This document shows, piece after piece, positions 112-61,450 of a DNA stretch of 64,000 nucleotides. This DNA comes from Azolla caroliniana. Its lineage: Eukaryota > Plantae > Polypodiophyta. A program made the position numbers and the translations under genes. The notes below the pieces were generated by a model. The model had not been told where the DNA came from and searched no databases. It was given only the letters and a program-made list of their open reading frames with translations. The stretch is from positions 11,594,001-11,658,000 of the forward strand of contig JBHGNT010000021.1 of NCBI GenBank assembly GCA_043228905.1, in the 5' to 3' direction. Within the stretch, counting starts at the first letter, position 1, and every line of letters begins with the position of its first letter.

Positions 112-935
112 CTGCCCCCCTCTCTAAAACATTGCACTCTTGCACTGGAAAGTTAGGGAAGTTAGTTCTAAGAGTATTTTTGCATTCCCATGTGGCATCT
201 TTGATAGATTTATCCATCCATTTAATTTTAAATTCACGGATTATTTTAGTACGTAGATTTTTTGTTATAACATCGAGAATTCTTTCTGGTACATGTCGTT
301 TAGAAGATAATTCTTCAGAAGTAACTAGAGTTTCAGTTGTAACTATATTGTCGCAAGAACCTAAAAGTTCTTTTAGATGACTTACATGAAAAATGGGATG
401 AATTTCAACGCCATCGGGAAGAGCGAGACGATAGGCTAATGAACCAATGCGTTTGAGGACTTGAAAAGGTTCACAAAACCATGGGGCTAACTTCGCGCAC
501 TTACCCGTACACAATGTCTTAGAATTGTGAGGTACACGTAAAAATACCTTCTGTCCAGGGTTGCATACACAAGGTTACCTATTATGATTGATGTAAAAAC
601 GCGCTCTATCTTGAGCTATTTCTATATTACCTCGTGCAATATACAACATACCTTGCATATCCCGAAGAAGGTTTTGCGTACTTCGCAACTCAACATGATG
701 AATATTAACATCAATTGGGGCACGTGGCTGAAAAACCATACATCAACATAAAACGACTATATCCCGTTGACGTATGCTTGGAGCTATTATAACCAAACTC
801 CAAAATTGGGAGATAACGTTCCCATTTTGCTGGTTTTGCACTAACGTATGCTCGAAGCATGTGCTCAATAATTTGATTTACTCGTTGTGTCTATCCATTG
901 GATTGAGGATGATCCGTTGAGCAGATGCTAAACGT
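112..935 (-). pseudogene. Element A integrase C-terminus and chromodomain
   Basis: KLAPWFCEPFQVLKRIGSLAYRLALP..IHPIFHVSHLK (GPY/F-type region), PERILD..FKIKW..DATWE chromodomain, STDHPQSNG. The frame continues at 11204 across the H insertion. Confidence 0.9.
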
Positions 936-2827
936 TGTCGTGATGTGGTGGGCTCGAGAGTAGGAAACCCCCCTTCTTTTTTTCCTATAAAAGGAGGTCG
1001 AGGGGGGCTCATTGGGGGGGACGTTTTGGGAGGAGGACACTATCGTCATTTTTCCTTCGGAGCTCTTCATCTTCTTCTTCACCACTTTGCTTCATCTCAT
1101 ACCCCGTCATCCTCTCATTGCCATGTGCTCGTCTTCTTTGCATTGGCACTCGAAGTGCTCGTTTACGGTGCTCGTGAGCCAGAGCTTCATTGGTTCGACA
1201 TTGCTTCGCCTCGTTCATTGTTGCAAACCCGTGTGCTCACCTCGCCGTTCGAGTGGTCGTGGTTCTTTGGGGTTGGCATTTTTGTGGTGGTCGTGTGTTC
1301 GTCTTCTTCGTCTTTGTCTTCGTCGTCTTCGTGCTCCGTGTTTGGATTTGCTCGTCTCTAAGGGCATTTAGTATTTATGTTTTGTGGAGCTTGTGGTTAA
1401 CTACAAGTTGCCACATTATAATCAAACCCTATTTTATAAAGGGCCCTCCTGCGTTGGAATTGAACACGTATTTATTTCTTTAGCCAATATCATTTGTTTT
1501 TTCTTTTTCTTTTTTTCTTTCTTTGTTCTCGTCCACTTGTACGTTCAGTCGTCTTGTGACGAGGGAGCATTTCGGGCGTGCCCATGCACCTCTCCTCATA
1601 AGGGCATACGAGCATTCTTGCGTGTGTTTGTGTCTTCCTTGTACGTTCGTTCGTCTTGTGACGAGGGAGCATTTCGGGCGTGCCCATGCACCTCGCCTCC
1701 TTATAAAGGCGTACGAGCATTTGTTTGTGTGCTTGTGTCTTCCTTGTACAATCGGTCGTCTTGTGACAAGGGAGCGTTTTGGGCGTGCCCATGCACTTCT
1801 CCTCCTCATAAAGGCGTACGAGCATTTTGTGCCTGTGTTCATGTCTTCATTGTATGTTCGCCCGTTTTGTGCTGAAGGAGCGTTTCGGGTGTGCCCATGC
1901 ACCTCTCCTCCTCATAAAGGTGTACGAGCATTCTTGTGTGTGTTTGTGTCTTCCTTGTACGTTCGGCCGTCTTGTGACGAGGGAGCATTTCGGGCGTACC
2001 CATGCACCTCTCCTCCCTATAAAGGCATACGAGCATTTGTGTGTGTGCTTGTGTCTTCCTTATACGTTCAGTCGTCTTGTGATGAGGGAGCGTTTCGAGC
2101 GTGCCCATGCACCTCTCCTCCTCATAAAGGCGTACGAGCATTTTCTGTATGTGTTTGTGTATTCCTTGTATGTTCGGTCGTCTTGTGACGAGGGAGCGTT
2201 TCGGGCGTGCCCATGCACCTCTCCTCCTCATAAAGGCGTACGAGCATTTGTGCATGTGTTTGTGTCTTCCTTGTACGTTCGGCCGTCTTGTGACAACGGA
2301 GTGTTTCGGGCGTGCCCATGCACCTCTCCTCCTCATAAAGACGTACGAGCATTTATGCGTGTATTCCTTGTACGTTCGGTCTTCTTGTGACGAGGGAGCG
2401 TTCGGGCTTGCCCATGCACCTCTCCTCCTCATAAAGGCGTACGAGCATTTGTGCGTGTGTTTTGTGTCTTCCTCGTACGTTCGACGTGTTGTGACAAGAG
2501 AGCGTTGGGGCGTGCCCATGCACCTCTCCTCTTGATAAAGACGTACGGGCATTCGTGTTTGTGTTATCGTCCCCTTGTGTGTTCATCTTGCGTGCTCATC
2601 TTTGCTTGTACTAGTTTGATCACTGTCTCGTGCGGTGATCTCGAAAACTCAACTAGTCGTGATCAACGAAAGCCACCGACGTCACAAAAGGGGCAACGAA
2701 CCCTTTCTTGGGAAGGGGTCGAGAAGTAGTATTGTTGTAAAGCAAACCTCAGGTCTTCTCTATCCCTTAAGTACTCCCTAGTCCAAGACCCTCGTGGTCC
2801 CGCCCAAGTAACACACGCGCGAGAAAC
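936..2827 (+). repeat. 5' LTR of H (last bases at 9216-9224, split by Copia G)
   Basis: TG start, TATAAAA near 987; distal part homologous to 10803-11203; the LTR ends TTGCAACA at 9224 just before the PBS. Confidence 0.85.
1537..2575. repeat. Tandem array of about 10 x 105 bp inside the H LTR
   Basis: Units start at about 1537, 1639, 1744, 1850, 1955, 2060, 2166, 2271, 2368 and 2473; core TTGTGACGAGGGAGCRTTTCGGGCGTGCCCATGCACCTCTCCTCCTCATAAAGGCGTACGAGCATT. Confidence 0.95.
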
Positions 2828-3064
2828 TGTTGAGCTAGCAAGCTCAACCGGATCCGGATCGGTTAAAGAAGCCTGAGCCGGATCGGCATCCGGAAGGATG
2901 AGCCGAATTGGTATCCGGAAACAACCGACCGGATCGGGGAGTCGGATTCAAGCGGGAATCGGAAGCCTAGTAGTAGCCTAGAGTACTAGGTAATCATTGT
3001 CTCGTAGTTAGTGTCAGTTGCATGTAGGAATATTGAAGTACTTCTTAGGAATATTGAATATTGA

Positions 3065-6000
3065 TGCGGATGGTCGAAGAAAACCACGCGAGTGGGTCAA
3101 GGATCACTCAATCGGACGACCGGATGTTGTACATGGATATAGATTGGCCCCACGAGCGTGGTGGACGAGGTGGGTCGGCATGCAGTGGAGGCAGCCGGCA
3201 AGAGCAAGACTAGAGGCACAAAGGTGGTGCCAACAACCGTTCCGGACCCTCCACAAGCAGGACGAGTCAAAGCGGCGTCGGGAACCAGCAAGGAAAGGTC
3301 GACACAGAATGTTGGTACTGTAGCAAAAAGGGCCACAGGGAAAGCGAGTGCTGGAAGAAGCGCACCGATTCAGACAAATTCGGATCCGGCAAACCCGGTC
3401 GGGAGAACCGACAAACCTCACACTACGTGGAAGGATCCAGAACTGGGAAAACCGGTAAATGGCTAGCCTTCGTGATGAAACACAAAGCTAACTCGATGAA
3501 GAAGACTACTTCCAAATCGGAGGAAGTATGGTACATTGATTCCGGAGCGTCCAATCACATGACGAGCCATGAAGAGTGGTTCTCTTTTTTGGAGAAGCCG
3601 GAACAACCAGGGAATGTCGAAACCAAAGTCGACACCCCTCGCCCGATTGTGCATGACGGAGAAGTCCCTTTAAGCCATGTCGGACAAAAGGGGAAGCTAA
3701 TGAACGTACTACACGTTCCGACTATCACAAAGAACCTGGTGTCAGTTGGACAAATCGTTGACCAGGGGATGCAGGTGCGGTTTATGCACCTAGGGTGCTT
3801 CATCGAGGAAGAAGGCCAGATAATTGCACAAGGGCACAGAGAAGGGAGGATGTTCATCCTCAACACTAATGACATCAGTACTTGCATGTTTGCCAAGTGA
3901 CAGAAGATTGAATCGGACATTGATCTCTGGCACAAGCGGATCAGCCACGTCAATTATTGGAGGCTTCAAGACCTGCAATCAAAAAAGTTGTGTTCAGATT
4001 GCCGAACCTCAGTGGCCGGAAGGCCGAAATTTGTGAAGCCTGCCAACTCGGGAAGCAACACCTGACGAAACCGGAGCTGTAACAAGCTCAACCTAATCCA
4101 TTCGGATGTATGGGGACTGACACAAAACGTTAGTCTTGGCGGGAGTCGATACTTCGTCTCCTTCATCGACGACTACCGCCGGCACCTCATTGAACGGAAG
4201 AGCGAAGTCTTTGAATGTTTCCGGAACTTTAAAAGCTTAGTTGAATGGGAAACGGAGAGGAAGGTCAAGTGCTTGCGGTTGATTGGTGGAAAAGAATACT
4301 TTTCCGGCCACTTTAGCAGTTATCTGCAGCAAAATGGAATTCGGAGAGAATTCAACTGCAGATAACGCCGTAGCAAAACGGTGTGGCCGAAAGGAAGAAC
4401 TGGTCGATTGTCGATGCAACAAGGGCAATCTTGGAGGAGAAGAGCATGCCCCAATTCTATTGGGCTGAGGCGGTCCAAACGACCGTCTACATCCTAAACC
4501 GGATCAGAGACAAGGTGTCATCACATGAGCTATATTTCGGGCGGAAGCCGAATTTGAGACACCTTCAGATATTCGGTAGCATAACATATGTGGATGTACC
4601 GGATGAGAAGTGGAGGAAGTTGGATCCGAAGTCGGAGAAGTGCATCCTGGTCGGCTACTCGCATGAGCAGAAGGGGTATAAGTGCTATAACCCCCGGACT
4701 AAGCAGGTCCGACTAAGCCGAGATGTCGAGTTTGATGAGACAACATCATGGTAATCCCTACCGACTCCAACTCCTGATGAAGACCTGATTCCGGAAGATG
4801 AGGCTAGTGAGCCCCAGGAGGTCCAAGCAGAAGATGAAGAACTCGTCCCTCTAGAAGAGAGTCCGATCTCATTCTAGCTAAGTGGACCGAATGAGCGGCT
4901 GAGTCGGGATGACTAGTCAGATGAGGAACCGGCGAGTAGTGGAAACTCTGTCATGCTCTCCCCGTGCAAGGAACCGAGGAGACAGTTCACGCGCAAAGAG
5001 AAAGGAAAGAAGAAGATGCCGGAATACGAAACCAGGAACGTTGAGTCGGATTGGAGCGAATTTGACTCTGGAAATGATGAAGGTAAATCTTCGGGAACGA
5101 AGTCTGAACCGGCCAAGAAGGGCCCTAAACCGGGTGATGACAAGTTACGCCGGTTCTCCCGCCAGAAGAACCCCGTTATGAGGTACGGGTACAATGAGTA
5201 CATGGCGCATCACTATGCGTACATGACCAAAGTGGTGGAAGTGCGTGAGCCGGAGAGCTACGTAGAAGCGGCAAAGGACGCAAATTGGGGTGTCGTTATG
5301 GAGGTAGAAATGTGTGCACTCGATGCCAACGACACATGGGACCTCGTTGATCCTCCCCGATATTGTAAACTGATTGGTTGCAAATGGGTGTACAAGGTAA
5401 AGTACAATGCTAACAGTTTGGTTAACCGGTACAAGGCCCGTTACTGGCGAAGGGATACGCACGGACCCACGGAATCGACTACGACGAGACCTTCCCTCGA
5501 GTAGTGAAGATGACGACTATTCGTGTGGTATTGGCGGATGTTGTGGCAAGGGGGTGGCATCTTCACCAGATGGACGTGAAGAATGCGTTTCTTCAAGGTA
5601 ACCTTGAAGAACTGGTCTATATGATCCAACCTCGCGGATTTCAGTCGGAGATGAACAAGTCGGCGATGTGCCAGCTTAAGAAGTTGCTTTATGGTCTGAA
5701 ACAAGCTCCCCGAGCTTGGAATGTGAAGATCACGCACCGGTTGCGTAAGATGGGGTTTGTGACCTGTAAATCTGACTCATCGTTGTTCATCTGGCAAGGT
5801 CCGGATTGTCTAGTTTGCATCCTACTCTATGTTGATGATTTACTCATCACCAGACCCGGCCTCAATGAAATTGTCTAAATAAAGTCCCAGTTGTCGGACG
5901 CATTTGAAATGAAGGACTTGGGGGACCTTCATTATTTTCTTGGGATCGAGGTGATCCAAACCCCCGACGGCATATTGCTCTCCCAACGACACTATGTGTT

Positions 6001-8782
6001 GAATATGCTATACAAGTTCGGCATGATGGAATGCCAACCTATCTCCACACCCCTGGACCGGAACCAGAAGCTTCGTCCCAACTCCAGACCAACCTGCGAT
6101 GAGAAATGGTTCCGACAAATTGTTGGAAGCCTCATATATCTATAAATACTCGACCTGACCTCAGTTACCCGGTCGGAGTGATCAGCCATTTCATGCAGAA
6201 GCCGTCTATTGAGCACCTTTAGTGCACACACCGGATACTCTAGTGTCATGAAGATCTGTCACTATGTGCGGATTGCGAGGCGGAACCACCGGGGTCCTGG
6301 ACCGGAAGGATTTGAAGTTTGCACTAGCTTTAGCGAGAAAGGGTTTTTAAGATAGATTGAGAGAGATTGAGATTAATATGAGATTTAAACGCTTGACTTT
6401 AGGTTGAGAGAGATTGATATGGCGAGAGAGAGATAGAGAGTGAGAGAGATAAGATCGAACTTTTAACTTTAGATTTGAGAGACAAGATATATCATCAATT
6501 GGATAACGAATTTCTTACTTTTAATTTTCTTGATTCATACATCGTTCCCTTTGATATTTTTCATCCACTCTTTTATAAATGCCCCCATGCATATGATGCA
6601 TGTGGGGCACAAGAGATGCATAAAATGCATGATACATGTTTGCTATTTGGCGCTCATGTGTTACATGTGAGGCGTGATAACCATGTCACTCATTTAAGCT
6701 CTCATATGAGAATATTCAAGTAAAACTATAATGCTAAAAATATAACTTTAAACAAATGATTTGGCTTAATAGTAAGCCTAATTGCTTCCTATCTTGGAGG
6801 TGCAAAGTTCAAGTCTTGCTTACACCTTTTTCTATTATGCACAAAAGACTATTGGACCAAATATCTTTAAGACACCATACACCACAATCAACCGATCCCT
6901 CCGATATGCATCCGTTTGGTCCGGCCTAATCCGCATCCCGATCCGGTTCGCGGTCACCGGCCGGTTGCTGGTTCTGTCAACTCACCGGCTTCGCCGCCGG
7001 TTTTGGTTGGTTAAAACCTTTACAAGTCTTGCTTACACCTTTTTCTATTATGCACAAAAGACTATTGGACCAAATATCTTTAAGACACCATACACCACAA
7101 TCAACCGATCCCTCCGATATGCATCCTTTGGTCCGGCCTAATCCGCATCCCGATCCGGTTCGCGGTCACCGGCCGGTTGCCGGTTCTGTCAACTCACCGG
7201 CTTCGCGCCGGTTTTGGTTGGTTAAAAGCTTTACAAGTAGCTAGGCCACACCCACTCATCCAATTAGCTTAGTTCAAGTCACCTTGAACTCTCTATGCTC
7301 CACACATAGACACAAGAATAATAGCTTTTGCTTTACCTTATATATGGTGAGATCCTTATTTGTCCTGTCTATGTGGGATATCTCACAGTTTTATCTTTCT
7401 CTTTTCCTTTGGAAACTTTCTACCCACATAACTTGAGACTTAAATGTCCGTTTCGTATGTAGTACAGTGCATTCGAAAGTGCTTAAAGACCTCCATCTTT
7501 TTGTACTAAGATATTAAACTAATTTAAAATAGTATTTTCACTATTATTGTTTTACATGATTCATACTCAATTTCGTATGTTTTATGCGATTTTCACACCA
7601 TTGCCGAAAATCTTCACGACACCGATATATGAGCGGCACGAAGAATCGAGGACTATTATACCAGCACAGTATAGTTGGGAAGCTAGTTGAATATACCAAT
7701 GCCAACTAGGTTGGTGATGGATCGGATCGCCGATCCACCTCCGGTTACGTGTTTTCTCTAGGTAGCACGGCTGTTGCGTGGAGCCGCAAGAAGCAACCAA
7801 TAGTGGCTCTGTCGAGCATTGAGGCTGAATACTAGGGCGCTACCAATGCCACCTGTGAAGCCATTTAGCTTCGGCAACTGCTGCAAGACCTGCGGATTGC
7901 GGTACCAACCCCAATCTTGATCTACTGTGACAACATGAGCAGCATTCAGCTTGCCAAGAACCCCGTGTTCCATGCTCGAACGAAGCACATAGAGGTCCAC
8001 TATCACTTTGTGCATGAGCGGGTTTTGAGCAATGAAGTTGAACTTTTGTATGTTTAGACGGATCGGCAGGTTGCCGATATCTTCACCAAACCGCTTGGAT
8101 CGAACAAGTTGCAACACTTCACCGAAATGCTTGGTTTTCAACATCTTGAAGTGCCGCACTTGAGGGGGAGAAAAGGAAAGGGAACATATGGCACCAGACA
8201 AGGAGCCAGAGAGGAAGAAAGAACCAACAAAGGGGGAGACAAGAAGAATAAGGAAGCCGAGTCAACGAAGGAAGTCGGCACATCCGAACAAGTTGGAACG
8301 ACCGACAGTGGCGGCAGAGTCAAGAAGGATAGAGCCGACGGAAAGAGAAGGCCAAGACCTGGACATGGTCTGATATGGTGAAGGGCCTGAAACCGGAAGA
8401 CGAGTTGGAGAGCACCGATTTAGACAAGAGTTGAAACGAATTGAAGGAAATGGATTCAGTTCAAGATTTGGAGAAGTTGAATCAACTAAAGGCCAAGCAG
8501 ACAGGGACGTAGTAGGAGTCGACGCCAACACGAAGGAACCGACGGGTCGACAAGCACCGGAGTCGCAGCAGCGAGGCAGCTGAAATGGGCATGCTGAGCA
8601 GACAAGCCGACCGGGGAGGTCGAGGCGCGCAATACCGGACGGGTCGCGGGAAGCGGAACCAGACCAGACGAGGAGCGCGAGCAAGGCGTGATGACGCTAG
8701 AAGGAGTCAGGTGGAAGGACCGGCTGCCACACAGACTAACACCATGATCCGACCTCAAGTTGAGCTTAAGGGGGAGTGTTGA
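3065..8782 (+). pseudogene. Copia G gag-pol remnant (zinc knuckle, PR, INT, RT, RH, tail)
   Basis: WYIDSGASNHMT protease, KLDPKSEKC, MDVKNAFLQG and LYVDD RT motifs; many stops and frameshifts; interrupted by the solo LTR at 6244-7621. Confidence 0.92.
6244..7621 (-). mobile_element. Solo LTR of the D Gypsy family inside G RT
   Basis: Termini TGTCATGAAGAT...ATCTTCACGACA; homologous to the LTRs at 37942 and 45746; flanks CTAG/CCGA, and removing 4 bp restores the host frame; internal 213-bp tandem duplication at 6810-7238. Confidence 0.9.
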
Positions 8783-9210
8783 GTGAGCAAGCTAAAACCG
8801 AATCCGGATCGGTTGAAGAAACTTGAGCCGGATCAACATTAAGAAGGATGAACTGGATCGGTATCCGGAAACAACCGGCCGGATCGGGGAGCCAGATTCG
8901 AGCAGGAACCGAAAGCCTAGTAGTAGCCTAGACTACTAGGTAATCATTGTCTTGTGGTTAGTGTCAGTCGCACGTAGCGATATTGAAGTACTTGTCAGTA
9001 CTTCTGTCAATCCTTTATGGACTTGTATAAATAGTGTTGTTTAGCACGTTGTATGTACAGAGTTTTAGAGTCATTTTTTGAATCTACGTTTAAGTTTTAC
9101 TCTCTCTGTGTCTCCCGTGTATTAAGCTTCTCCATTAAACCTTCATCTCACTCTCTGTTGCTATCTGGCTGAGCCGGTTTGTCTAACGCTTCCGCACGAT
9201 AACATTTACA
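8777..9210 (+). repeat. 3' LTR of Copia G
   Basis: Follows the PPT; its first ~215 bp match 2828-3043; ends TTTACA. Confidence 0.92.
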
Positions 9211-9229
9211 GAAACTTTGCAACATAAAT

Positions 9230-9246
9230 TGGTGAACCCGACGTGA
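9230..9246 (+). promoter_or_regulatory. Primer binding site for tRNA-Trp (element H)
   Basis: TGGTGAACCCGACGTGA is the reverse complement of the plant cytosolic tRNA-Trp 3' end (..TCACGTCGGGTTCACCA, recalled); 5 nt after the LTR end. Confidence 0.88.
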
Positions 9247-9269
9247 AAGGGCGGCAAGGGAGAACCCAA

Positions 9270-10795
9270 ATGCGAGGAGGAGAACTTGCTGAAGTGATGG
9301 CGGTAGCGGTGGACCGCTTAGTAAATGCCCGAGAAGGCATCACCGGCCTAGACCGGGCCATAGAGACGGTGGTCAGCACAACGGGTTAGTTCAATGGAAG
9401 AGATACCACAAGCTACTTAGATGCCTATAAGGCCGAAATGCTTATGCAAAATGTCCCCGAAGATAGGCGGCTAACCGGATTCGCTAAAGTGGTAACGCCG
9501 AGTATACCCGTAGAGGTACGTGAGTGTAAAGAATCAGTGGTGATTCTTGTGCAGGGAATAGACTAGAGATATGTGTTGTGAGTGTGTGTGTATGAGAGAG
9601 AGAGAGAGAGAGAGAGAAACACAAGATAGATAGATTTGAACAAGAGTAGAATACTCAAGACAATGTATATTACAAAGGAGATTAACCGAACTTATTACAA
9701 AGTAGGAGGAGAGTGCTTTATATAATCACTCTCTCTCTCTCTTCATTAACTACTGAAGCTCATGGGTCATGGGGAATGTGAAAGCTCATTAGTTATGTGT
9801 CATAGAATATGATTCTATGACACATAGTTAATGTGTGGATAAGAGTGGTGACTTTTGACCTTTGAGTGCACACTCTCAAGGGAGTGTTCACACACTAGAC
9901 TAGGTTGAGCTTGATTCTCAATAGCGAGATCCAAGAGGACTATTGCAATTGGGTGAAGTTCGAAGAAAGACTCCTCGAGAAGTATGGCCTTAATGACTCA
10001 CTCAGAATTTCAAAAAGGGATCTAATGGAGTGGGTTGAGCTTCCCGGGAAGGGGAGAAATACTATGGCACTTCTACAAGAATTTGAGAAGCGCTTCACAC
10101 GACTCCCGGCTCTCGAGTTGCACCTGACCTACCCACTCACCACCATACACTTCAAATGGATGGTGGATTTGGTTTCGATGCCAATGGGAGTGGGCCAAAT
10201 GAAATATTTGGTGCTAGCAAGAGAAGACCTAACAAACCAGGTAGAAGGGCGAGCCTTAGCAAACAAAACGACAACGAGGGTGTGTAAATTCTTACTTGAG
10301 GATGTCATCTGCCGGTACGGATGTGTGGGAAAGATAGTGGCCGACAGAGGAGAGTTGAACGCTCAGGAAGCTATAGAGCTCTTTGAACGACATGGAGTGA
10401 AGCTCTCTCTCACAACCTCCTATAACCCGGAGGCTAATGGAAAGATAGAACGCGGACATGGGCCTATCGTAAAACCCATTGTAAGAGCTTGTGATGGGCG
10501 ATTTGGGAACTGACCTCGGTTACTACCTTATGCCTTGTGGGAAGATAGAACAACTCATAGCTCAGTTACAAGTTTCATGCTAGCTAAACTCATGTACGGA
10601 CAAAAGCCGGTGATGCCCATTGAAGACAAGATTGCGTCATGGGTAGCGATGCCGTGGGAAAATGAGATGAGTCGAGAAGAGCTTCTAGCAACACGGATAA
10701 GGCAACTTGAGAGAAGACCCAAAGACTTGGAGTTGGCAAAGGAGAGGTTAGAAGCGGCTAGGCTAAGTAACAAAGCCCAGTTCAACAAGACCTCG
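9270..10795 (+). pseudogene. H gag N-terminus fused by deletion to integrase core
   Basis: MRGGELAEVMA..RLLEKYGL (homologous to 54112 onward), then LHLTYPL..FKWMVDLV..VADRGEL..YNPEANGKIERGH; PR, RT and RH are missing. Confidence 0.88.
9525..9923. mobile_element. Solo LTR (399 bp) of an unrelated family inserted in H gag
   Basis: Imperfect inverted termini TGTAAAGAATCA...TGATTCTCAATA; 5-bp TSD GTGAG (9520-9524) and GCGAG (9924-9928); gag resumes afterwards. Confidence 0.8.
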
Positions 10796-10802
10796 GAAGT
10801 AA

Positions 10803-11203
10803 CAAAGTGTACGAGCATTTATGCCTGTGTTTTGTGTCTTTCTCATACATTCGACGTCTTGTGACAAGGGAGCATTCGGGTGTGCCCATGCACCTCTCCT
10901 CATAAAGACATACTGTCATTCGTGTTTTTGTTATTGTCCCCTTGTGCTTTCATCTTGCATGCTCATCTTTGCTTGTACCTGTTTGATCACTGGCTCGTGC
11001 GGTGATCTTGAAAACTGGACTAGTCGTGATCAACGAAAGCCACTGGCCTTACAAAAGGGGCAACGAGCCAATGCTTGGGAATGGGTCGGGTAGTAGTATT
11101 TTCGTAAAGCAAACCTCAATTATTCTCTATCCCTTTAGTACTCCCTAGTTCAAGACCCCCATGGTCCCGCCCAAGTAACACACACATGCGAAACATTGCG
11201 ACA
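10803..11203 (+). repeat. Truncated 3' LTR of H
   Basis: Matches about 2430-2827 plus 9216-9224; the PPT and most of the LTR are deleted; left boundary approximate. Confidence 0.85.
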
Positions 11204-14200
11204 ACGTAGTTTCTAACTTCTTAAAGACTTGTGTCTAGAAGTCACTAGTAAAGTTTGGATCTCGATCACTCACAATTTCCATCGGTAACCCATAAAAACG
11301 AAATAACTCGTCAACGAATTGGTAAGCCAATTCAGGAGCTATTACCATGGTTTTAGTAGCGATAAATATGGCCTTTTTGGGTGCGAGGAAGGCTAACAAT
11401 AAAATCCATGGATATACTTTCCCACTTATTATTGGGAACGTCCAAGGGATGTAAAAGTCGTGCGGCTTTAAGTCGCTTGGCTTTGTTAACTTGACATTGG
11501 TGACATTTAGTCACATAGCTATGTATGTCAGGACGCATTTTAGGCTAATAGAATTGAGTGGAGATGAGAACGAGTGTATGATGTATTCCAGGGTGCCCTG
11601 CTGAGGGTGCATCATGGCATTAAAAAAGAATTTTGTTTTTGACCTCAGGCAAATCTAGAACACAGACCTTCCCATTACGGTAGAGCAGACCGTTAGCAAT
11701 GTGGAAGTATTCCTTCGAGGATGTGGTGGCGTCTGTTCCAGACTCAACTCTTGCCCAATATTTCGCAAAATAACTGTCATCAGGATACTTTCCTCGAAGG
11801 TGATCATAAAGATCTAAGCATGTTAACTTCACGGATGCTACTTAGTGCATCAACGACAGTGTTGATGGAACCTTTATGATATCGTATGGAAAAATCAAAG
11901 TCTTGGATGAGATCAGCCCATCGTGCCTTATGACCTTTCAAGTCTTGTTGGTCACAAAAATATTTCAAGGACTCGTGGTCCGTAGTTACCACAAAACGAT
12001 TTCCATAAAGATAATGGGGCCATGTTTTGAGCGCATGTATAACTGCAAATAATTCCTTTTCTTGAACCGTATACCGACATTGAGCAAAATCAAGTTTCTT
12101 ACTCTCGAATGTTATTGGTTTACCATCATGATATAAGATAACCCTATAGCATAATCGCTTGCATCGGTTTTAACTTCGAAAGGTTTTGGAGGATCGGGTA
12201 AAAGATGCGACAAAGCCTTGCACACCAGGTCCTTGAGTTCTTTAAAGGTGAGGTCTAGTGTAGCATTCCACACAATAGGTTTTGTAGACTTACACGTTTG
12301 ACCTTTTAGAAGATCAGTAAATGGCGTCGTCAATTGGGAGTAATTATGAAGGGATTTTCACAAAACCCGACAAAACCAAGGAATGATCGAACTTCTCGAA
12401 TATTCCGAAGAGTAGGCCAATGTTTGATTTTCTTGATGCGAGAAGGATCAATTTCAACTCTTCATTTGGTTATGAGATGTCCAAGATAAGTAATTGATTT
12501 CTTGAAGAACTCGCATTTTGAGATCTTCGCGTAGAATTGCTTGTCACACAATGTTTGTAAAACAAAGCAGACATGTTTAGCATGTTCTTCTAATGTACGA
12601 CTATAAACTAGAATATCATCCAAGAAAATAACAAAAAAAATTCCAAGTTCTTGGAAAATGTCATTCATTTCTTATTGTAATGTGGTCGGAGCATTGGTCA
12701 AACCAAAAGGCATGACCAAAAACTCGTAATGGCCATAACGCATATGAAATGCGGTTTTAGGAACATTGTCCTCACTTATACGAATTTGATGGTAGCCCGT
12801 ACGAAGATCAAGTTTCGTAAAATACCGAGCTCCTTGGAGACAGTCAATTAGATCGTCAACCTGGGGCAATGGATATGAATTCTTGATCGTCACTTTATTC
12901 AAGCGTCGGTAATTAATACACATACGCCATGTGCCCTCTTCCTTTTTAACCAAGAGAACAGGTGCACCCCATGGAGATTTACTATAACGTATATAACCCA
13001 TTCGTAAATAGTCCTTGAGTTGCTTAGATACTCTTCGGATCGACTTAAGCGATAAGGAGGTATACTTATTGGTGCAACGCCAGGTACAATATCTATACGA
13101 TGGTCTATATTACATTTAGGAGGTAACCCATGTGGTAGTTCACTCGGAAAAACATCACGAAAATCATTTAAGATTTCATCGAGTTGTTGTTGTTCAAAAT
13201 ATGATAATTGAACCAAGACATTATCGATATTGTAAACGTGAATGTTTGGATCAAGTACACAGTAAAATAAAGTAGAACAAAACAACTCGGATATTGATGG
13301 AGAGGAAACAATTGAAAGAGATTATTTTTTAACACATTAAATAAAATGAGTACAATCGTTCAGTACAAAAGTAATTGAATGATGAACCCAATCAATAGAT
13401 AAAGAAGAGTTTTTATTAAAAAATCAGGGATAACTTAGTATTACATAAGTGGTACAAAGATTCATTACATGGAAGTCTACTTCCTCTATATAAGTATCAA
13501 TAGAAATTCCTAATGAATGAATCACCCTGTTGATGTATTGTACTCTTCCATCAGCCAAATGCACCTTATAGGTGTGATCACTTATGATGGGTTGGATTCC
13601 CCATATCTAAACCAAACGATCATTCACAAAATTGTGTGAGCTTCCCGAATCAAATAAAAATTAAACGGGAGATCCATTGATATACCCGTTTGCACGTATT
13701 AAATCATTGGGTCCCAATACATAATGAGGGAAAGAACATTGACAATTACTTAAATGATGTGTATAGACCTCAAGGATATTAGGAATTTGACCTTTATGGT
13801 CTGCAACTTTTGCTTTGTTGTCGTGCTCTTTTCGTTGGAGCTTTCGACATTGTTCTTTTGTATGACCCTTCTTTTTGTAGAATATGCAAAAAGAACATTA
13901 GGAATCTGACCTTTATGGTATGCAACTTTTGCTTTGTTGTGGTGCTCTTTCTGTTGGAGCTTTCGACATTGTTCTTTTGTATGACCCTTCTTTTTGCAGA
14001 ATACGCAGAAAGGATGTTGTTGCTTACAATCGCGATCCATGATTTCGTTGGGTGTCTTGTGTTTCCTAGAGAATTGCAGCTTCTTAGTCCCAAGCACTTC
14101 GTTGGGTTTGTTATGGTCCTTCGAAGTGCGTTGATAGCGAAGAACTATTTCAACGGCCTCTTGGAAGGATTTTGGATCCTTATTGTGCACTATCTAGTGA

Positions 14201-39765: not shown

Positions 39766-39837
39766 TTGACCCCCACCAAACCGCTCGTCGTCCGGTACGT
39801 GCCAAGAAGGGAGAGTGTGAGATTTAGGCTATGGTGA

Positions 39838-45680: not shown

Positions 45681-45720
45681 GTATCGGTTGATCCTCGACT
45701 GATCCTTCCTGCCGCGTCTT

Positions 45721-45737
45721 TCACGTCGGGTTCACCA
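45721..45737 (-). promoter_or_regulatory. tRNA-Trp PBS of D
   Basis: Plus strand TCACGTCGGGTTCACCA, 8 nt from the LTR edge at 45746. Confidence 0.9.
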
Positions 45738-45745
45738 CTTAATTA

Positions 45746-46268: not shown

Positions 46269-46301
<33 letters not shown>

Positions 46302-46839: not shown

Positions 46840-46922
<83 letters not shown>

Positions 46923-53100: not shown

Positions 53101-53372
53101 TCCTTCATGACCGATCAAGGGTACCACAAGACGCAGGCCGATCACTGCGTATTTGTGAAGAAGTTCAAAGGAGGCGACTTCCTGATACTCCTTCTGTACG
53201 TGGATGACATGTTGATCGTCAGACGGGACCAAGCCAAAATACGGATGCTGAAGAAGGCTCTGAACCGAACTTTCGCAATGAAAGACTTGGGTCCGGCAAG
53301 ACAGATACTAGGGATGCACATCATCCGGAACCGGTCAAAGAAGCAATTGTGGTTGTCACAGGAGAAGTACGT
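50197..53372 (+). pseudogene. Copia J gag, PR, INT and RT
   Basis: MDDSLGGMFKLTGSNYSVW, CFYCDKPGHFQKNC, WVVDSGASFH, LWHKRLCH, KLDPKTRPC, LLYVDDMLI, LSQEKYV. Confidence 0.93.
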
Positions 53373-54071
53373 TGTCGTGAAGAAAACCGTCCCTAGGCGG
53401 AAACCGAGTCTAGCATGTGTAAACCGGCCCTTACACGCGAGCACACATTTCATTGTATAGTAAGTAGGTAGGTACAAGTCGGCTGAGGTGAAATCCTAGG
53501 TAGCACGCATTCAATAGGGAGAGAATCAAGGTGTATCTCTGTCTGAAAGGACAGAGAATTAATGTGATGTAACGGATGATAACAACCTCCCTCCTTGGGC
53601 TATAAAAGAGAGGGAGAGGAATGGAAAAGGTATCGCGCGTTAAAGAGGACGAAGTGCTGCCGGACTGGGACCGAGCCCTTCTCCTCTGCCACTCTCCATA
53701 GCCATTTTTGCGTAGGTTTTCGGGAGGCTGACTCTGCTCTGTGGAACGCCCGTGTGCTTCCGGTAGAGTCTCCATCTCGCTCTTTTGTGTGTGAGTGAAT
53801 AAGCGTCGGTGTTCGCCTTGCCGGCCTGTTAGTTGTAACCGTCTTGATATATATATATATTTATATACATACGTGTTCATATACTCAGACTTCTAGTCGT
53901 CTCGTTTAAATGCTGTGTTGTTGGACTGTGATCCTTGTGTGCTCCCGTGTCTATGCGTGTGCAAGTGCGTCCGTTGCCTTTCCGTTCTCCTCCTTCTCAG
54001 CTATTTTTCGGTCCAAGACCCCGGTGGTCCCGCCTCATTCTCCACGCACGCGCGTAACAACGCGACATATG

Positions 54072-54088
54072 TGGTGAACCCGACATGG
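54072..54088 (+). promoter_or_regulatory. tRNA-Trp PBS of F2
   Basis: TGGTGAACCCGACATGG, 4 nt after the LTR end. Confidence 0.85.
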
Positions 54089-54111
54089 ACAAGCGGCAGA
54101 GGAATAGAAAG

Positions 54112-56238
54112 ATGAGGGGGTCGGATATCGCGGAAGCCATGGCTTCGGCTGTGGATCGGATAGTGAGTGCGCGCGAAGGCGCAGGCGCCCTCGATAGGGC
54201 TATTGAAGCGGTCGTCGGCGCGATAGGCTGGTTCGGTGGGAAGGATGCCACGAGCTATTTGGAGGCCTACCGGGCCTAGATGGTAATGAGAGACATTCCG
54301 GAAGAAAGGCGATTGACTGGATTCCCTCGAGTGGCGATGTCGGGCATCCATGCAGAGGTGCTCGAGGTATGGGCTGAGAGCCGGACCTGGGAAGAGTTTG
54401 AAGGTCGGCTCCTCGAAAAATACGGGCTTGATGACGCGCTTTGGCTCTCGAAACGGGACTTCATGGAATGGGTAGAGACCCCCGAAAAGGGGAGAAACAC
54501 GTCGGTGCTCCTCCGGGAGTTTGAAGAACGCTTCGTGCGTCTTTCGGCGCTCGACCGGACCGTACTAGACACAAGTCGCGTCCTGCTGTTCGTTAAGTCA
54601 GTGGATGCGAGGGACCGGGAGCAAGTGGGTCTCCTACTGGAAATTGATGACGGGTTGACGGCCGACTGGGCTGTGGTGAAGAGAGTCTATAGCCGTTTCG
54701 ACAAACAGCGAGAGTGGGTCGATAAAGGATCAACAGGGGCAGGCTCTGTAACAGCAAGGAAACTCGAGCCAACCCCGCCAGCGCAAAGGGAAGAGACCCG
54801 AGACTGGCTCGAGACCAGATCGATTTCGACCGGCATGGTCAAAGGCTCGTCCGGAGGAGCAGCTCTAGAGGAGCTGACTAGGATGGTAAAGGACCTCCAG
54901 ATTGCACAGGCATGGAGGGACGGCGGCGAACAGGCCCGTGACCGAAGGCCTCTGGCTGGAAACCAGTGTTTGTGGTGCGACGCGATCGGCCACGTCCGAA
55001 AGGACTGCGGGGACTTTGCCGAGGCAATGAGAGCCAACGTGGTGTACCTATGGAACGGTCGGGTGCACGCTAGCGAGACCCGAAGGACCCTAGACCTGAA
55101 TGTCAGACGAGGGGGTATGAAATGGCTGATGGTAGAAGTGGTGGCTCGCCAAGCGGAGACCATCCACTACTCGGCGTCGGCTGGGATCCGGGTCGGAGGT
55201 GGTGAGGCCCGGGAGACGAACGAAGCCGAAATCTAGGCCGTTGATGCTGGAAGGCCTCGCCGGCGCACGACTAAGGAAAGAAGAGGCGGACCGCGCGGAA
55301 AAACGGGTCTGGGACGTAACCAGGTGGAGTGACCCGGTCGAAGAGAAGACGGGCTTCGTTGAAGCCGCATGCCAGAACTACGAGGCTCTGGTGGAAGACA
55401 AGCGAGTAGGTAAAACCGGAGGGGCCGGGCCCTCGCAACGGTACGAGACTCGATTCGGTCAAAGGCAAATGAGGCCGGTGCGACCGGCACACCGGATAAA
55501 GCCAAGAAGGCCGGGTACCGGTTGAGCACGGATATCGAAAGGACCATGGACCTACGAAAGGTCTTGGAGGAACGTATCCTCGATTACAAATTGGAGTTGT
55601 CGCTAAGGGAAGTGCTCGGGATCACCAAGAAGGAGTTCCACGACTCCATCGTAGACTTGGTGAAGAGGAAGAGGCTATCGACAGAGCCAGAGCCGGAGAA
55701 GCCGGTGGAAGTGCAAACGATGCACATAGAGGACATGGCGCTAGAAGACGAGTTGGCGGAGAGCCACAATTTGAGGCCGCACTAGGCCAGAGCGACCACG
55801 GAGACCCCTGTTAAGATCGGGGATGTCCAAGAGCCGGTGGTGGCGTTGGTGGACCATGGTTCAGAAATCAACTTGATGTCCATGGACTTCTACAAAAAGG
55901 GGAAATGGCCTATCAACACCAAACACGACTGGAAAATACGGGCAGCGACGCACGCCACGGAAGAACTACATGGAGCCTACCCGAACGTACGGGTGAAAAT
56001 CGGCGATGTCGAGATCGACCAACACTTCTTCGTGTAGGAGACGTCCTCACATCCGGTTATACTAGGGGAACCATACATCACGGCGGCACGGATGGAGACC
56101 AAGGTACTGGACAACAGTTCGGCCTATGCAAGAGTCAAGAGCCAGGACGGGCGTCGCTCGTTCCAGTTCCTGACGGTGCGACCAAACCATGAGCATAACC
56201 ACGAGACCCTCGGTGGCGAAACCCAAGGTGATTTTTAG
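54112..56238 (+). pseudogene. F2 gag-protease
   Basis: MRGSDIAEAMA.., CLWCDAIGHVRKDC, ALVDHGSEINLM; ends GDF*. Confidence 0.9.
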
Positions 56239-56294
56239 AGAGGGCTATCAAGGCGTGGGGCCGCGATAGTCCATACACCCCGAAAAAACCCCAC
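56229..56294 (+). promoter_or_regulatory. Putative -1 ribosomal frameshift signal of F2
   Basis: T GAT TTT TAG; stem 56242-56249 with 56265-56272; loop GTGGGG able to pair with CCCCAC at 56289-56294; the -1 frame is open from 56232 into RT. Confidence 0.72.
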
Positions 56295-59200
56295 AAATGT
56301 ACAATAGGGGAGAAGACCTGTACCATAGGTAGGAAATTTTGGTTCTCCGACAATGGGGGTTGTACGATTGTCGGCGTCGTTGGCCGGGAGAAGAAGAGGG
56401 CGGAGGAGCGACTTCGGGCATGCGGAGTCCTCAGCCCTGGAGAGGAAATCAACGGAGTTGTGGAGACGGTCTCTTTCGACGACACCTTGGGACAGTTACG
56501 AGAGGTGGTCGGAGGAGGCCTTAAAGAGGACCAGACGATTCCGATATGTTCAGAAGGGATGTACGAAGTCATCGCCGAATTTTGTAACGGGCTCGAGTTG
56601 GATTGGACGGCCCAGGTGGACACAAAGTACAAGACTGTGGACCGGAAGGTGAGGCCAGTAGCGGCACCCTTGCCGGAGGGCAGCGAGTTACGAGTAAAGG
56701 GGGGTGCGTCGGACCCGAGTTTGCGAGATCCGGCCAGCATAGGACACACGTTCATCGCTATAACGCTACGAGAGCTCAAGATCGGTGGGGGTGGCTTTCT
56801 ACTGCCGGCGGAAGAGGACCAGTTTCCGAGAACGCTCGGGAGGCACAGGAAGGCTTTCGCGTTCTCACCGGAGGAGATCGGGTGCGTAGACCCGACAGTT
56901 GTGGAACCGATGGTGATCTTCACGGTACTGCATGTGCCATGGAACCTCAAACCGATTCCGGTACCCAGAGCTAACATCCCGAAGCTGATGGAGCTGTTGA
57001 AACAAAAGGTCGAGATGGGCATCCTCGAACCATCGAGTGCCCCATACTCAAATCGGTGGTTTACCATGCCAAAGAAAAACGGCACATTACGTTTTATTCA
57101 AGACCTGCAACTGGTCAACAAGGTGACCATTCGGAACGCAAGAATCGGATCGACCATAGACGAGTTCGCGGAGGCCTTCGCCGAAAGGTCGATTTACTCT
57201 GTCGGTGATCTGTACTCGGTGTACGATCAGTTCCAACTAGTCGTGGAGAGCAGAGACATTACGACGATGCAGACTCCTCTCGGCCTAGTGCGGATGTGTA
57301 CCCTACCACAAGGAGGGACGAACTCGGTGGCTCACATGGTGAACACGATGAACAAAGTGCTTAGGGATTGTATCCCGAACATCACCATGCCATTCTTAGA
57401 AGACATCCCGATCAGGGGATGCCAAGTTGAGGAAAAGGACGAGACAATCGGACCGGACGGATTTTGGAATTTTGTGGCGACTCACATCGATGACTGCGAG
57501 AAGGTGCTGCAGAGACTAGAAGGCGCGAGACTCACCTTCTCCGGGGAGAAATTGGCCTTCGGGCAATCAGAGATCATGGTCGTCGGGCACCTATGCGGAC
57601 CATACGGTCGGAAACCGTCTCCGGCCAAGGTGGAAGCCATCTCCGCGATGAAGCATGACTGCAATTCGGTTACGGAGGTTCGGATATTCTTGGGAGCATG
57701 CGTGTTCTACCATATCTAGATCCCGCATTACACCCACGTCGCGGAGCCGTTGTATGGGTTGCTGAATAAAGGGCGTAAATTCGAGTGGGGAGACGAGCAT
57801 ACGGAGTCAATCCGAAAGATGAAGGAAGCACTTGCCATGGCACCGGCGCTCCGAAAGGCTGTCTATGGCAAAGACACTCCGATTTACGTAACCGTAGACA
57901 CGAGTTCGACCGGGATCGGATGGGTGATCAACCAAGAGGATGACGTTGGCACGAGGTTCCCCATCCGGTTCGGCGCGAAGGTCCTCAGTGCGCGACAGCG
58001 AGGATACGCCCAGGTTAAACGCGAACTCTGGGGTATCGTTTCGGCGGTGAAGGCCGATAAAGACTATCTGATCAGGACAGAGGTAATAATCGAGACGGAC
58101 TGCTTGCCGATTCTCGGCATGGTTTCCGGATGCGCGACACCGGACCTGGCAATGCTCAGGTGGATAGCGTACATCAAGTCCCTGAATCCGGAGATACGAC
58201 ACATTTCCGGAAAAGACAATGCCATGGCCGACATGCTCTTAACGGCGAGGTTCGAAAACGAGGACGGCACGGTTTCGGAGGACGAGGAAGTCGGCGTAGA
58301 TTTCTTCGAGGCGACATACGTGACAACTAGAAAGGGGAGCACTCCGGCACTTTATGAATTCGACGAGAGCAAGTATGACGGGGTGTGACTCCAGATCGGC
58401 GGGCTCCTGAAAACAATGATACCGGACGTGGCGTGGACAAAGGAAAAGACCAACCGGATCCGGAAGGAAGCGTATCGATTCTTCCTTCGGGACGGGTACA
58501 TATGGAAGCACCCGAAGAAGAGGGACGGAATCCCGCTCCGAGTGGTGGCGAAGAAGGAGGAACATGAGGAGTTGCTGGAGGCCTACCACGAGAGTCCCTA
58601 GGCCGGACACCGCGGAATGTGGGCCACGTTCGAGAAGCTAAAGGGGAAGTACTGGTGGCTGGGACTGTACCGGGACGTGCATTGGTTCGTGACGACTTGC
58701 GAAAGCTGTCAGATGCACTCCATAGTCCGACATTGGGACGAGCTTCACCCGACCTACCCCCCGACCTTCCACTTCAAATGGATGGTGGATTTGGTGATTA
58801 TGCCGATGGGGGTAGGACAAATGCGATATCTGGTGCTGGTTCGGGAGGATCTGACAAACCAGGTTGAAGGCCGAGCGCTGCAGAACAAAACAACCACGTC
58901 TGTGTGCTGGTTTCTGATCGAGGACATGATATGTCGATACGGGAGTGTAGGAAAGATTGTGGCTGACCGCGGAGAGTTGGACGCGCAAGAGGCTGAAGAG
59001 TTGTTTGACCGACTAGGGGTCAAACTCTCGCTCACCAAAGCATACAATCCGGAGGCTAACGAGAAGGTGGAGCGCGGACACGGGCCGATCATCAAAGCGC
59101 TAGTGCGGGCGTGTGAAGGCCAAGTCGGGAACTGGCCACGACTACTACCTTATGCCTTGTGGGCGGACCGAACTACGCACAGTTCGGTAACCGAGTTCAT

Positions 59201-59723
59201 ACTAGCAGAGCTTATGTACGAACAAAGGCCGATCATGCCAACAGAGCGAACCATCTCCTCATGGGCCACGATGGACTGGAGAGATGAGATGAGCCGGGAG
59301 GAGCTGCTAGCAGCACGGATTAGACAGCTTGAGCGAAGGCCAGAGGACGTGGAATGAGCCGTAGAGAAGCTTCGGTTGGCAAGGTTGAATAACAAAGGGC
59401 GGTTTGACTGGACTCACCGACTGCGACCGAAGAAAATCGAGGAACGTGACTGGGTCCTAGTGTATGACAACAACCTCGACAACCAACGTAGGGCAACGCG
59501 GAAGTTTGCAAGGAGGTGGTTCGGGCCTTACGTGGTGACAGGCACCAACGACAACGGGACTTACCATCTTGCGGAGCTCGACGGTACGAGGATAGCAATA
59601 CCGGTAGTGGGGAAGAGGGTCAAAGCGTTTAAGAAACGACACGAGTGTGAGCTGGATCTGGAAAGCATGGATGGCGACGACGGGCGGTCCGAGGCGGATG
59701 ACGATTCGGAAGACGAGAAGTAA
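56232..59723 (+). pseudogene. F2 pol (RT, RH, INT)
   Basis: RFIQDLQ, LPQGGTNSVA, VDTSSTGIGW, KWMVDLV, VADRGEL, RRWFGPYVV; several in-frame stops; no chromodomain. Confidence 0.93.
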
Positions 59724-60638
59724 AGCATGGACCGGTTTTCTCCATCAAGAGCCCAATTTTGGCGCATACCGGTGTATGCGCGGTTAGGTGGGGGCGGATG
59801 TCGTGAAGAAAACCATCCCTAGGCGGAAACCAAGTTTAGCATGTGTAAACTGGCCCTTACACGCGAGCACACTTTTCGTTGTATAGTAAGTAGGTAGGTA
59901 TAAGTCGGTTGAGGTGAAATCCTAGGTAGCACACATTCAATAGGGAGAGTATCGAGGTGTATCTCTATGTAACGGATGATAACAGCCTCCCTCCTTGGGC
60001 TATAAAAGAGAGGGAGAGGAATGGAAAAGGTATCGCGCGTTAGAGAGGACGAAGTGCTGCCGGACTGGGACCGAGCCCTTCTCCTCTGCCACTCTCCATA
60101 GCTTTTTTTGCGCAGGTTTTCGGGAGGCTGACTCTGCTCCGTGGAACGGATGATAACAGCCTCCCTCCTTGGGCTATAAAAGAGAGGGAGAGGAATGGAA
60201 AAGGTATTGCGCGTTAGAGAGGACGAAGTGCTGCCGGACTGGGACCGAGCCCTTCTCCTCTGCCACTCTCCATAGCTTTTTTTGCGCAGGTTTTCGGGAG
60301 GCTGACTCTGCTCCGTGGAACGCCCGTGTGCTTCCGGTAGAGTCTCCATCTCGCTCTTCTGTGTGTGAGTGAACAGGCGTCGGTGTTCGCCTTGCCGGCC
60401 TGTTAGTTGTAACCGTCTTGATATATATATATATTTATATACATACGTGTTCATATACTCGGACTTCTAGTTGTCTTGTTTTGCTGTGTTGTTGGACTGT
60501 GATTCTTGTGTGCTCTCGTATTTATGCGTGTGCAAGTGCATCCGTTGCCTTTCCGTTCTCCTCCTTCTCTGCTATTTCTTGGTCCAAGACCCCAGTGGTC
60601 CCGCCTCGTTCTCCACGCACGCGCGTAACAACGCGAGA

Positions 60639-61450
60639 ACGTGACAAAGGTGCTTCAGCGGTTAAACATGTCAAACGCGAAACTGGTCGGATCGACACTT
60701 CTGGCAAACTGCAGATTATCCGGTAAGCAAAACCCGAAGATGAAAGCAGAGAAGGTGGATATGATGAAGGTTCCATATGCCTCTGTCGTCAGGAGCTTAA
60801 TGTACGCAATGGTGTGTACTCGACTGGATATTGGATATGCAGTCGAAGTGGTGAGCCGGTTTATGAGCAATCCCGGCAAGGAGCTCTAGAACGCGGTCAA
60901 ATGGATACTCCGGTACTTGAAGGGCACTTCGAATATTTGACTCCGATTCGACTTCGGTAAAACTCAACTTGACGGTTTTACCGATTCGGATATGTCGGTT
61001 GATGTGGATACTAGCCGTTCTGCTTCCGGGTATGTAATGACATATGCAGGGGGAGCTATTTTGTGGCAGTCGAGGCTGCAAAAGACGGTTGCATTGTCAA
61101 CCACGAAGGCGGAGCACATGGCGGTTGTTGAAGCCGGTAAGGAAATATTATGGATGAAGAACTTCATCAGAGAGCTCAATGTCCGGCAAGATGAATACCG
61201 GCTCTATTGTGACAGTCAAAGTGCCATCCACCTTGCTAAGAACGCAACGTACCATTCCAAGACGAAGCACATCCAGCGTAGGTATCACTGGATCCGGGAG
61301 CGAGTAGAAGATCAATAGTTCACGTTGACGAAGATCCACACAACCGAGAACGGGTCAGATATGCTGACCAAAGTACTGATACCCGACAAGCTGGATGCAT
61401 GTTGGAAGCGGATCATACTAGTAAGACATCCCATGCCGGAGTGAAGGGGG
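60639..61450 (+). pseudogene. Copia J RT C-terminus and RNase H
   Basis: VTKVLQR..KVPYAS..LMYAMVCTR, WQSRLQKTVALSTT, CDSQSAIHLAKN, KHIQRRYHWIRE. Confidence 0.93.

What the first reader, a model, noticed from the sequence alone, without database searches (positions are those of the whole stretch)
932..60642. A tRNA-Trp-primed Gypsy lineage that inserts at CpG-centred 4-bp targets
Seen: all six readable insertion sites of the H/D/F lineage have CG in the middle of a 4-bp target. They are ACGT/ACGT (932 and 11204), CTAG/CCGA (6240 and 7622; reconstructed as CCGG by deamination), ACGT (27149), ACGG (30614), GCGT (37938) and ACGT/ACGT (53369 and 60639). In the three two-sided cases, removing exactly 4 bp restores the host reading frame. 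All six lie in coding regions of other retrotransposons, and the integrase has no chromodomain. Known: most plant LTR elements make 5-bp TSDs with weak sequence preference, while Drosophila ZAM makes sequence-specific 4-bp CGCG duplications. Inference: the integrase may read CpG or methyl-CpG directly, giving a chromodomain-independent route into methylated heterochromatin. The lineage may be the Phygy/Selgy-like non-chromoviruses; I could not test this.
Basis: partly seen in the sequence, partly recalled or inferred. Interest (0 to 1): 0.82.

Follow-up and report, generated by a model that had tools for sequence, protein, structure and literature searches.

The report
Phygy-type retrotransposon inserting at CG sites
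These jumping genes, in what is likely a fern genome, almost always insert at four-letter sites with CG in the middle, a habit already published for the moss Phygy family, and plain DNA-sequence reading likely explains it without any need for methylation, although that is untested.

Summary
All six window sites check out. Outside the window, 123 of 159 host junctions have CG in the centre of a 4-bp target, and 30 more have TG/CA, the decay products of CG. Local background is 5%. Of 42 paired ends, 22 match exactly at 4 bp and none at 5 bp. It is not new: Neumann et al. 2019 (PMC6317226) list Phygy as 4-bp NCGN targets, tRNA-Trp primer, no chromodomain. Those traits were met here; placement against named Phygy sequences could not be run. 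Additions: the host is likely a fern, relatives occur in liverworts and ferns, T is excluded at the joining position (VCGB), and there is no preference beyond the 4 bp. Methyl-CpG reading has no positive support: targets lie in repeats less often than random CG sites do (104/154 vs 235/300). It is not excluded. The scan met a Phygy-like nest elsewhere in this genome before (e1-10618240).

The parts
932..935 (+). 5' target duplication ACGT of element H, in the integrase region of a chromovirus on the minus strand
936..11203 (+). Element H: internally deleted Phygy-type copy. 5' LTR 936-9224 is split by a Copia element (2828-9210, 5-bp TSD GAAAC); integrase remnant 10115-10792; partial 3' LTR about 10804-11203
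   Evidence: the same LTR start follows a PPT in relatives
9230..9246 (+). tRNA-Trp primer binding site of H
11204..11207 (+). 3' target duplication ACGT of H
6240..6243 (+). Target duplication copy CTAG (inferred decayed CCGG) in a Copia pol region
6244..7621 (-). Solo LTR of the D family
7622..7625 (+). Target duplication copy CCGA
27149..27152 (+). One-sided target ACGT in a Copia pol region
27153..29133 (-). Element E remnant: 3' LTR 27153-28059, PPT, integrase remnant 28222-29133
30614..30617 (+). One-sided target ACGG at the end of a D-like RT/RNase H fragment
30618..37941 (-). Element G remnant: 3' LTR 30618-30966 plus about 36815-37240, split by a Copia element (30967-36814, 5-bp TSD CAAAC); PPT; integrase remnant 37375-37941
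37938..37941 (+). One-sided target GCGT inside the integrase of G
37942..47932 (-). Element D: 3' LTR 37942-39765, INT-RH-RT-protease-DUF4100-gag in broken frames, PBS 45721-45737, 5' LTR from 45746, far end lost near 47932
53369..53372 (+). 5' target duplication ACGT of F, in a Copia RT
53373..60638 (+). Element F, 7266 bp: 5' LTR 53373-54067, PBS 54072-54088, RT/RH/INT 56232-59720 with stops, PPT to 59798, 3' LTR 59799-60638; LTRs 646 of 692 aligned bases identical
60639..60642 (+). 3' target duplication ACGT of F

Best explanation
These are decayed copies of a Phygy-type Ty3/gypsy retrotransposon lineage that inserts at 4-bp targets with a central CG, and its integrase likely selects that CG from DNA sequence and shape alone, without needing methylation. 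Shown: tRNA-Trp primer site, PPT, no chromodomain, 4-bp duplication, VCGB target, no preference outside the 4 bp. Inferred from retroviral intasome work: a 4-bp stagger forces a sharp bend at the central step and favours pyrimidine-purine steps, and the joining site disfavours T. Inferred here: extra base-specific contacts narrow the choice to CG, since TA, TG and CA are commoner in the genome but are not used. Because repeat-rich blocks, and this lineage's own DNA, hold about three times more CG than CG-poor blocks, the rule would steer copies into transposon nests with no chromatin reader. The target is likely methylated after insertion and then decays to TG/CA.
For: 123 of 159 junctions CG, 20 TG, 10 CA, 1 TA, 5 other; other registers at background. 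In stretches chosen by position only, 14 of 19 CG and 18 of 19 CG/TG/CA. 39 of 42 paired TSDs keep CG in at least one copy; all 26 mismatches are C/T or G/A; T at position 1 or A at position 4 in 4 of 153 against 32% expected. CG is 18% of genomic YR steps (from frequencies). Base counts are flat beyond the TSD. Target flanks match a repeat in 104 of 154 cases, random CG sites in 235 of 300, random positions in 162 of 300 (Fisher p 0.016 and 0.007). CG per base is 0.021-0.024 in the three blocks without termini and 0.037-0.066 in the five with them. Relatives in other assemblies: 13 of 16 junctions CG (counted by hand). Phygy row of PMC6317226 Additional file 5. YR bending and T avoidance: PMC4422553.
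Against: No methylation data and no biochemistry. Most CG in these repeats is probably methylated, so CG and methyl-CG cannot be separated by sequence. The repeat test rests on eight 50-kb background blocks and a 660-kb reference, and the CG-density contrast is partly circular because the elements are themselves CG-rich. No named Phygy sequence could be placed in the tree. F-family copies (about 6.0-7.3 kb) fall below the published Phygy size range of 7656-9968 bp. No CG-contacting residue was identified.
Confidence: 0.7

Rival explanations
1. The integrase itself prefers methyl-CpG, which would guide a chromodomain-less element into silenced DNA.
For: CG is chosen far more strictly than other flexible YR steps. 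Targets decay by C>T/G>A, so they are likely methylated at some time. Flanks are in repeats more often than random positions (104/154 vs 162/300). A report that CpG methylation creates preferred retroviral integration sites in vitro is recalled, not found (one search returned 0 papers).
Against: Flanks are in repeats less often than random CG sites (104/154 vs 235/300). Decay also hits non-CG cytosines made CHG by the LTR end (8 of 8 position-4 mismatches), which shows methylation after insertion, not before. ZAM integrase binds CGCGCg on PCR products and oligonucleotides. No Pfam methyl-binding domain in the integrases scanned.
Confidence: 0.2
2. A host methyl-CpG-binding or chromatin protein tethers the integration complex, and the cut site follows from that.
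For: Host tethering is common in retroviruses (PMC4422553 abstract). The integrase has a weak SH3-like C-terminal match and an acidic tail.
Against: A tether sets the region, not a base-exact register: CG sits only at positions 2-3, with 0 hits one base to either side. A protein bound on the CG would be expected to block the cut (inference).
Confidence: 0.05
3. Only DNA flexibility is read (any YR step), and the CG excess comes from GC-rich surroundings.
For: 30 of 159 junctions have TG or CA; 3 of 42 pairs have TG/TG or CA/CA.
Against: TA occurs 1 of 159 times though it is commoner than CG genome-wide. Local CG background is 5.1%. About 1.3 doubly decayed pairs are expected from independent deamination against 3 seen (arithmetic).
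Confidence: 0.04
4. Artefact of misplaced LTR ends or of a few duplicated loci.
For: 10 of 169 junctions had near-identical flanks and were removed; LTR ends themselves contain CG.
Against: Ends were fixed by PBS and PPT junctions, independent of flanks. Copia elements in the same window show 5-bp GAAAC, CAAAT and CAAAC duplications. Sister-copy alignments give exact 4-base overlaps.
Confidence: 0.01

Closest known systems
Phygy clade, non-chromovirus Ty3/gypsy (Neumann et al. 2019, PMC6317226; passages, section 9, Additional file 5 read; Additional files 1 and 3 too large to read)
   Same: 4-bp NCGN duplication, tRNA-Trp primer site, no chromodomain, no extra RNase H found, coding region fills the interior.
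   Different: Described as specific to Physcomitrella patens; here the host is likely a fern. Some families are shorter (6.0-7.3 kb vs 7.7-10.0 kb). The motif resolves to VCGB with ACGT commonest.
TatI clade (same paper)
   Same: 4-bp TSD and tRNA-Trp primer site.
   Different: TatI has an extra archaeal-type RNase H between protease and RT; none was detected here. No NCGN preference is listed for it.
Selgy clade (same paper)
   Same: 4-bp TSD, compact, no chromodomain.
   Different: tRNA-Ala primer, about 5 kb, no target motif listed.
Drosophila ZAM (PMC2527525, passages)
   Same: Gypsy-type integrase with a CG-rich palindromic target that it binds directly.
   Different: Longer consensus CGCGCg plus a second binding site; animal element; the paper does not mention methylation (0 hits for 'methyl').
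Prototype foamy virus and other 4-bp-TSD intasomes (PMC4422553: abstract, section 12 part 1 of 2, section 14; PMC7826272 passages)
   Same: 4-bp stagger, central YR step, avoidance of T at the joining base; PFV integrase is the best PDB sequence match (E 4.5e-21).
   Different: Retroviral preferences are weak and accept any YR; they prefer bases 2-3 nt outside the TSD, which is flat here; Glu stands where PFV has Ala188.

Membership tests
Phygy | 4-bp target site duplication | tested here: met
   22 of 42 pairs exact at 4 bp, 0 at 5 bp; 3 of 3 window sites overlap by 4
Phygy | NCGN target motif | tested here: met
   123 of 159 CG, 153 of 159 CG/TG/CA
Phygy | tRNA-Trp primer binding site | tested here: met
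   H, D and F carry it; it complements 6 of 6 scanned tRNA-Trp(CCA) genes
Phygy | No chromodomain | tested here: met
   No Chromo hit in lineage integrases; positive control L143 E 5.9e-13
Phygy | No extra RNase H or extra ORF; compact interior | tested here: met
   Order gag/DUF4100/protease, RT, RH, INT; no second RNase H at E<=1. About 250 residues before RT match no family and remain unexplained
Phygy | Length 7656-9968 bp (descriptive; the paper calls size weak for classification) | tested here: inconclusive
   F is 7266 bp and paired copies span about 4.8-7.3 kb, some deleted; D spans about 10 kb
Phygy | RT/RH/INT group with reference Phygy sequences (the formal criterion) | not testable with these tools
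   Reference FASTA too large to read; no Physcomitrella-named hit. The tree shows one clade (98/98) with Riccia, Calypogeia and Adiantum proteins, far from this genome's chromoviruses and its other gypsy
TatI | Extra RNase H between protease and RT | tested here: not met
   0 Pfam families and 0 PDB matches at E<=1 in that stretch
Selgy | tRNA-Ala primer binding site | tested here: not met
   tRNA-Trp instead
Chromovirus (Tcn1) | Chromodomain at the integrase C-terminus | tested here: not met
   RT only 27% identical to the genome's chromoviruses

The most novel reading that the evidence does not exclude
The Phygy-type integrase, conserved from liverworts to ferns, reads methylated CpG directly in its target-binding groove, making it a retroelement integrase that uses DNA methylation itself, with no chromodomain, to find silenced DNA.
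Probability: 0.15. Interest if true: 0.75.

Novelty: new member of a known kind. Interest (0 to 1): 0.3.

Why it matters
The target rule is published, so the core finding is not new. Two smaller points add value. First, a lineage described as specific to one moss keeps the same CG rule in a likely fern and has close relatives in liverworts, so the specificity looks old and conserved (or moved between hosts). Second, how a plant LTR integrase reaches near-absolute CG specificity was not explained in the papers found (searches; listings only), and it can be tested simply with purified integrase. If methylation were read, it would be a new targeting route and a possible tool for tagging methylated DNA.

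Tried and rejected
Five-bp or six-bp duplications: 0 and 1 of 42 pairs, the one being a GC repeat that also matches at 4. A longer palindromic site: base counts flat from -5 to -20. 30618 as an unrelated motif: rejected. Other TGTCGTG hits (13819, 30349 looked at) are not LTR ends of this lineage; 62053 and 62171 were not resolved. Naming a Physcomitrella relative: none among named hits; the ESM Atlas gave only generic RT clusters. Host as a moss: my first guess; one host gene is closer to Adiantum and Ceratopteris (59-64%) than to the flowering plants listed (mostly 44-55% over long alignments); this is one gene only. Literature on methyl-CpG and integrase targets: one search found 0 papers, none on this point; GingerRoot (PMC6839031, passages), PMC7466625 (passages) and Additional file 4 of PMC6317226 were not informative. 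The motif count required 'GE' in its pattern, so it is no test of conservation; only the 16 pairwise alignments were used.
Full report
Setting. The window is G000:C21:11594001-11658000 of a 523-Mb genome and is a nest of Copia, chromovirus and non-chromovirus gypsy elements. One host gene, an L-type lectin kinase, is 59-64% identical to Adiantum and Ceratopteris proteins and mostly 44-55% to flowering-plant proteins over long alignments, so the host is likely a fern. An earlier scan note (e1-10618240) gave me that lead and also names Phygy; it is not independent support.

The six sites. All stated 4-mers are present beside LTR ends. Six insertions of the lineage have a readable host junction: H (936-11203, +), a solo LTR (6244-7621, -), E (3' LTR 27153-28059, -), G (3' LTR 30618-37240, -, split by a Copia), D (37942 to about 47932, -) and F (53373-60638, +). 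For the three two-sided sites, each flank was aligned separately to an uninterrupted sister of the host, and the flanks overlap by exactly 4 bases. The solo LTR reads CTAG/CCGA; a sister has TCGG at the same place, which fits CCGG with three C>T/G>A changes. The end at 30618 looked doubtful because homologs matched only from base 10-15; it is a real LTR end with a deletion of about 46 nt.

Genome-wide test. I fetched 108 loci by search and 80 stretches by place, 60 of them chosen by position only. LTR ends were defined from primer-site and PPT junctions, not from flanks. This gave 285 ends in 189 sequences: 106 first called internal (2 moved back to external), 4 dropped for poor termini, 2 dropped as decayed primer sites, 6 in the window, and 10 dropped as duplicate flanks, leaving 159. 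Centres: CG 123, TG 20, CA 10, TA 1, other 5. Local CG background is 5.1%; the binomial p is 1e-124, overstated because about 40 elements contribute both ends. CG occurs 0 times one base to either side of the register. In position-chosen stretches alone, 14 of 19 are CG and 18 of 19 CG/TG/CA. Of 49 candidate pairings I kept 42 by hand (removed: 2 in the window, 1 duplicate, 4 judged not to be two ends of one element, two of them partly because the 4-mers disagreed; both of those still have CG at each end). 22 of 42 match exactly at 4 bp, none at 5 bp; 39 keep CG in at least one copy; all 26 mismatches are C/T or G/A. Three Copia elements in the window give 5-bp duplications without CG. In 80 metagenome contigs with related integrases (50-95% identity), 13 of 16 host junctions are CG-centred, 2 TG, 1 other (counted by hand).

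Shape of the motif. T at position 1 or A at position 4 occurs in 4 of 153 against 32% expected at genomic NCGN sites (p 4e-20); A dominates position 1 (41 of 77). The motif is VCGB. Beyond the four bases the counts are flat.

What the element is. The primer site is the reverse complement of the 3' end of the genome's tRNA-Trp(CCA) genes. The domain order is gag, DUF4100, protease, RT, RNase H, integrase, with no chromodomain and no second RNase H; that DUF4100 was built from Physcomitrella proteins is recalled. Neumann et al. 2019 (PMC6317226) state that Phygy elements are the one plant exception with an NCGN insertion preference (passage), and their table gives Phygy: 186 elements, 4 bp (100%) NCGN, tRNA-Trp 81%, no extra domain, 7656-9968 bp. 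Selgy uses tRNA-Ala and TatI has an extra RNase H. Jedlicka et al. (PMC6911290, passages) report GC-rich centres in 4-bp TSDs and Phygy nested in Tcn1, as H is here in a chromovirus. The reference sequences could not be read, so formal placement is untested. An RT tree of 34 rows puts the window copies in one clade (98/98) with Riccia, Calypogeia and Adiantum proteins, far from the genome's chromoviruses (named hits). Phygy is also reported from a liverwort (PMC12885004, passages).

Mechanism. In retroviral intasomes a 4-bp stagger needs a severe central bend and selects flexible YR steps, and T at the joining base is disfavoured by a methyl clash (PMC4422553; PMC7826272). PFV integrase is the closest solved relative. 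This would explain the YR centre and the T exclusion. It does not explain CG alone: CG is 4.2% of steps against TG 6.8, CA 6.7 and TA 5.8, so some base-specific readout is inferred. The 3 TG/TG or CA/CA pairs compare with about 1.3 expected from independent decay.

Methylation. Decay of targets shows likely methylation after insertion: 8 of 8 position-4 mismatches lie where the LTR's TG creates a CHG site. It says nothing of the empty site. If methyl-CG were needed, targets should be richer in repeats than random CG sites. They are poorer: 104 of 154 flanks (5 of 159 too near a locus end) against 235 of 300 random CG sites and 162 of 300 random positions. CG density alone is 0.021-0.024 per base in the three blocks without lineage ends and 0.037-0.066 in the five with them, and about 0.08 inside F. 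The test is weak: few blocks, a small repeat reference, and partial circularity. ZAM integrase binds its CG-rich site on PCR products and oligonucleotides (PMC2527525, passages), so CG-centred specificity without methylation has precedent. I found no paper testing methylation for Phygy (searches; listings only).

Verdict. Observation confirmed and strong. It is a new member of a known kind, with a published target rule. Sequence-only reading is the best explanation (0.7); direct methyl-CpG preference stays open (0.15-0.2). Interest 0.3.

Noticed in passing
window 55846 (+) and 43909 (-): The lineage's protease motif reads L[IV]DHGSEIN, with His where retroviral-type proteases usually have Thr or Ser (recalled). 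Present in 15 of 24 homologs; the other 9 gave no match to the pattern.
   Followed up: partly
L153:1360-3048 (-); window integrase 58032-59720: Glu stands at the position of PFV Ala188 in 14 of 16 homologs; PMC4422553 says small neutral residues fill this place in retroviruses. Possible link to the flat flank preference.
   Followed up: partly
L153:4015-4875 (-), L175:3385-4764 (+): About 250 residues before RT in the pol frame match no Pfam family or PDB chain; the gag-protease and RT-RH-INT frames appear separate in homologs.
   Followed up: partly
window 2823-2827/9211-9215, 14558-14562/20480-20484, 30962-30966/36815-36819: Three copies of one Copia family have 5-bp duplications GAAAC, CAAAT and CAAAC, all with a central AAA.
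   Followed up: no
paired TSDs in G000: All 8 mismatches at TSD position 4 are T on the 5' side and C on the 3' side: the LTR's TG turns that C into a CHG site, a likely footprint of CHG methylation at the junction.
   Followed up: yes
G000 blocks: Repeat-rich blocks have CpG observed/expected near 1.0 while three other blocks have 0.54-0.62, the reverse of the usual depletion in methylated repeats.
   Followed up: no
G000:C8:17796786-17823371, C16:4989495-5105657, C5:10105608-10112201: Clusters of 5 to 19 matches to the tRNA-Trp 3' end, some at regular spacing of about 0.9-1.2 kb: possible tandem tRNA arrays (only L096 scanned).
   Followed up: no
window 40139-40477: Inverted repeat with 163-nt arms, 95% complementary and 13 nt apart, inside the integrase C-terminus of D: a local inversion.
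   Followed up: no
window 1513-2584, 46168-47632, 39010-39682: Tandem arrays of about 105, 162 and 202 nt inside the LTRs of H and D.
   Followed up: no
duplicate list: Several insertions sit at the same CG of different copies of a host element; either repeated use of one site or co-duplication. Not resolved.
   Followed up: no
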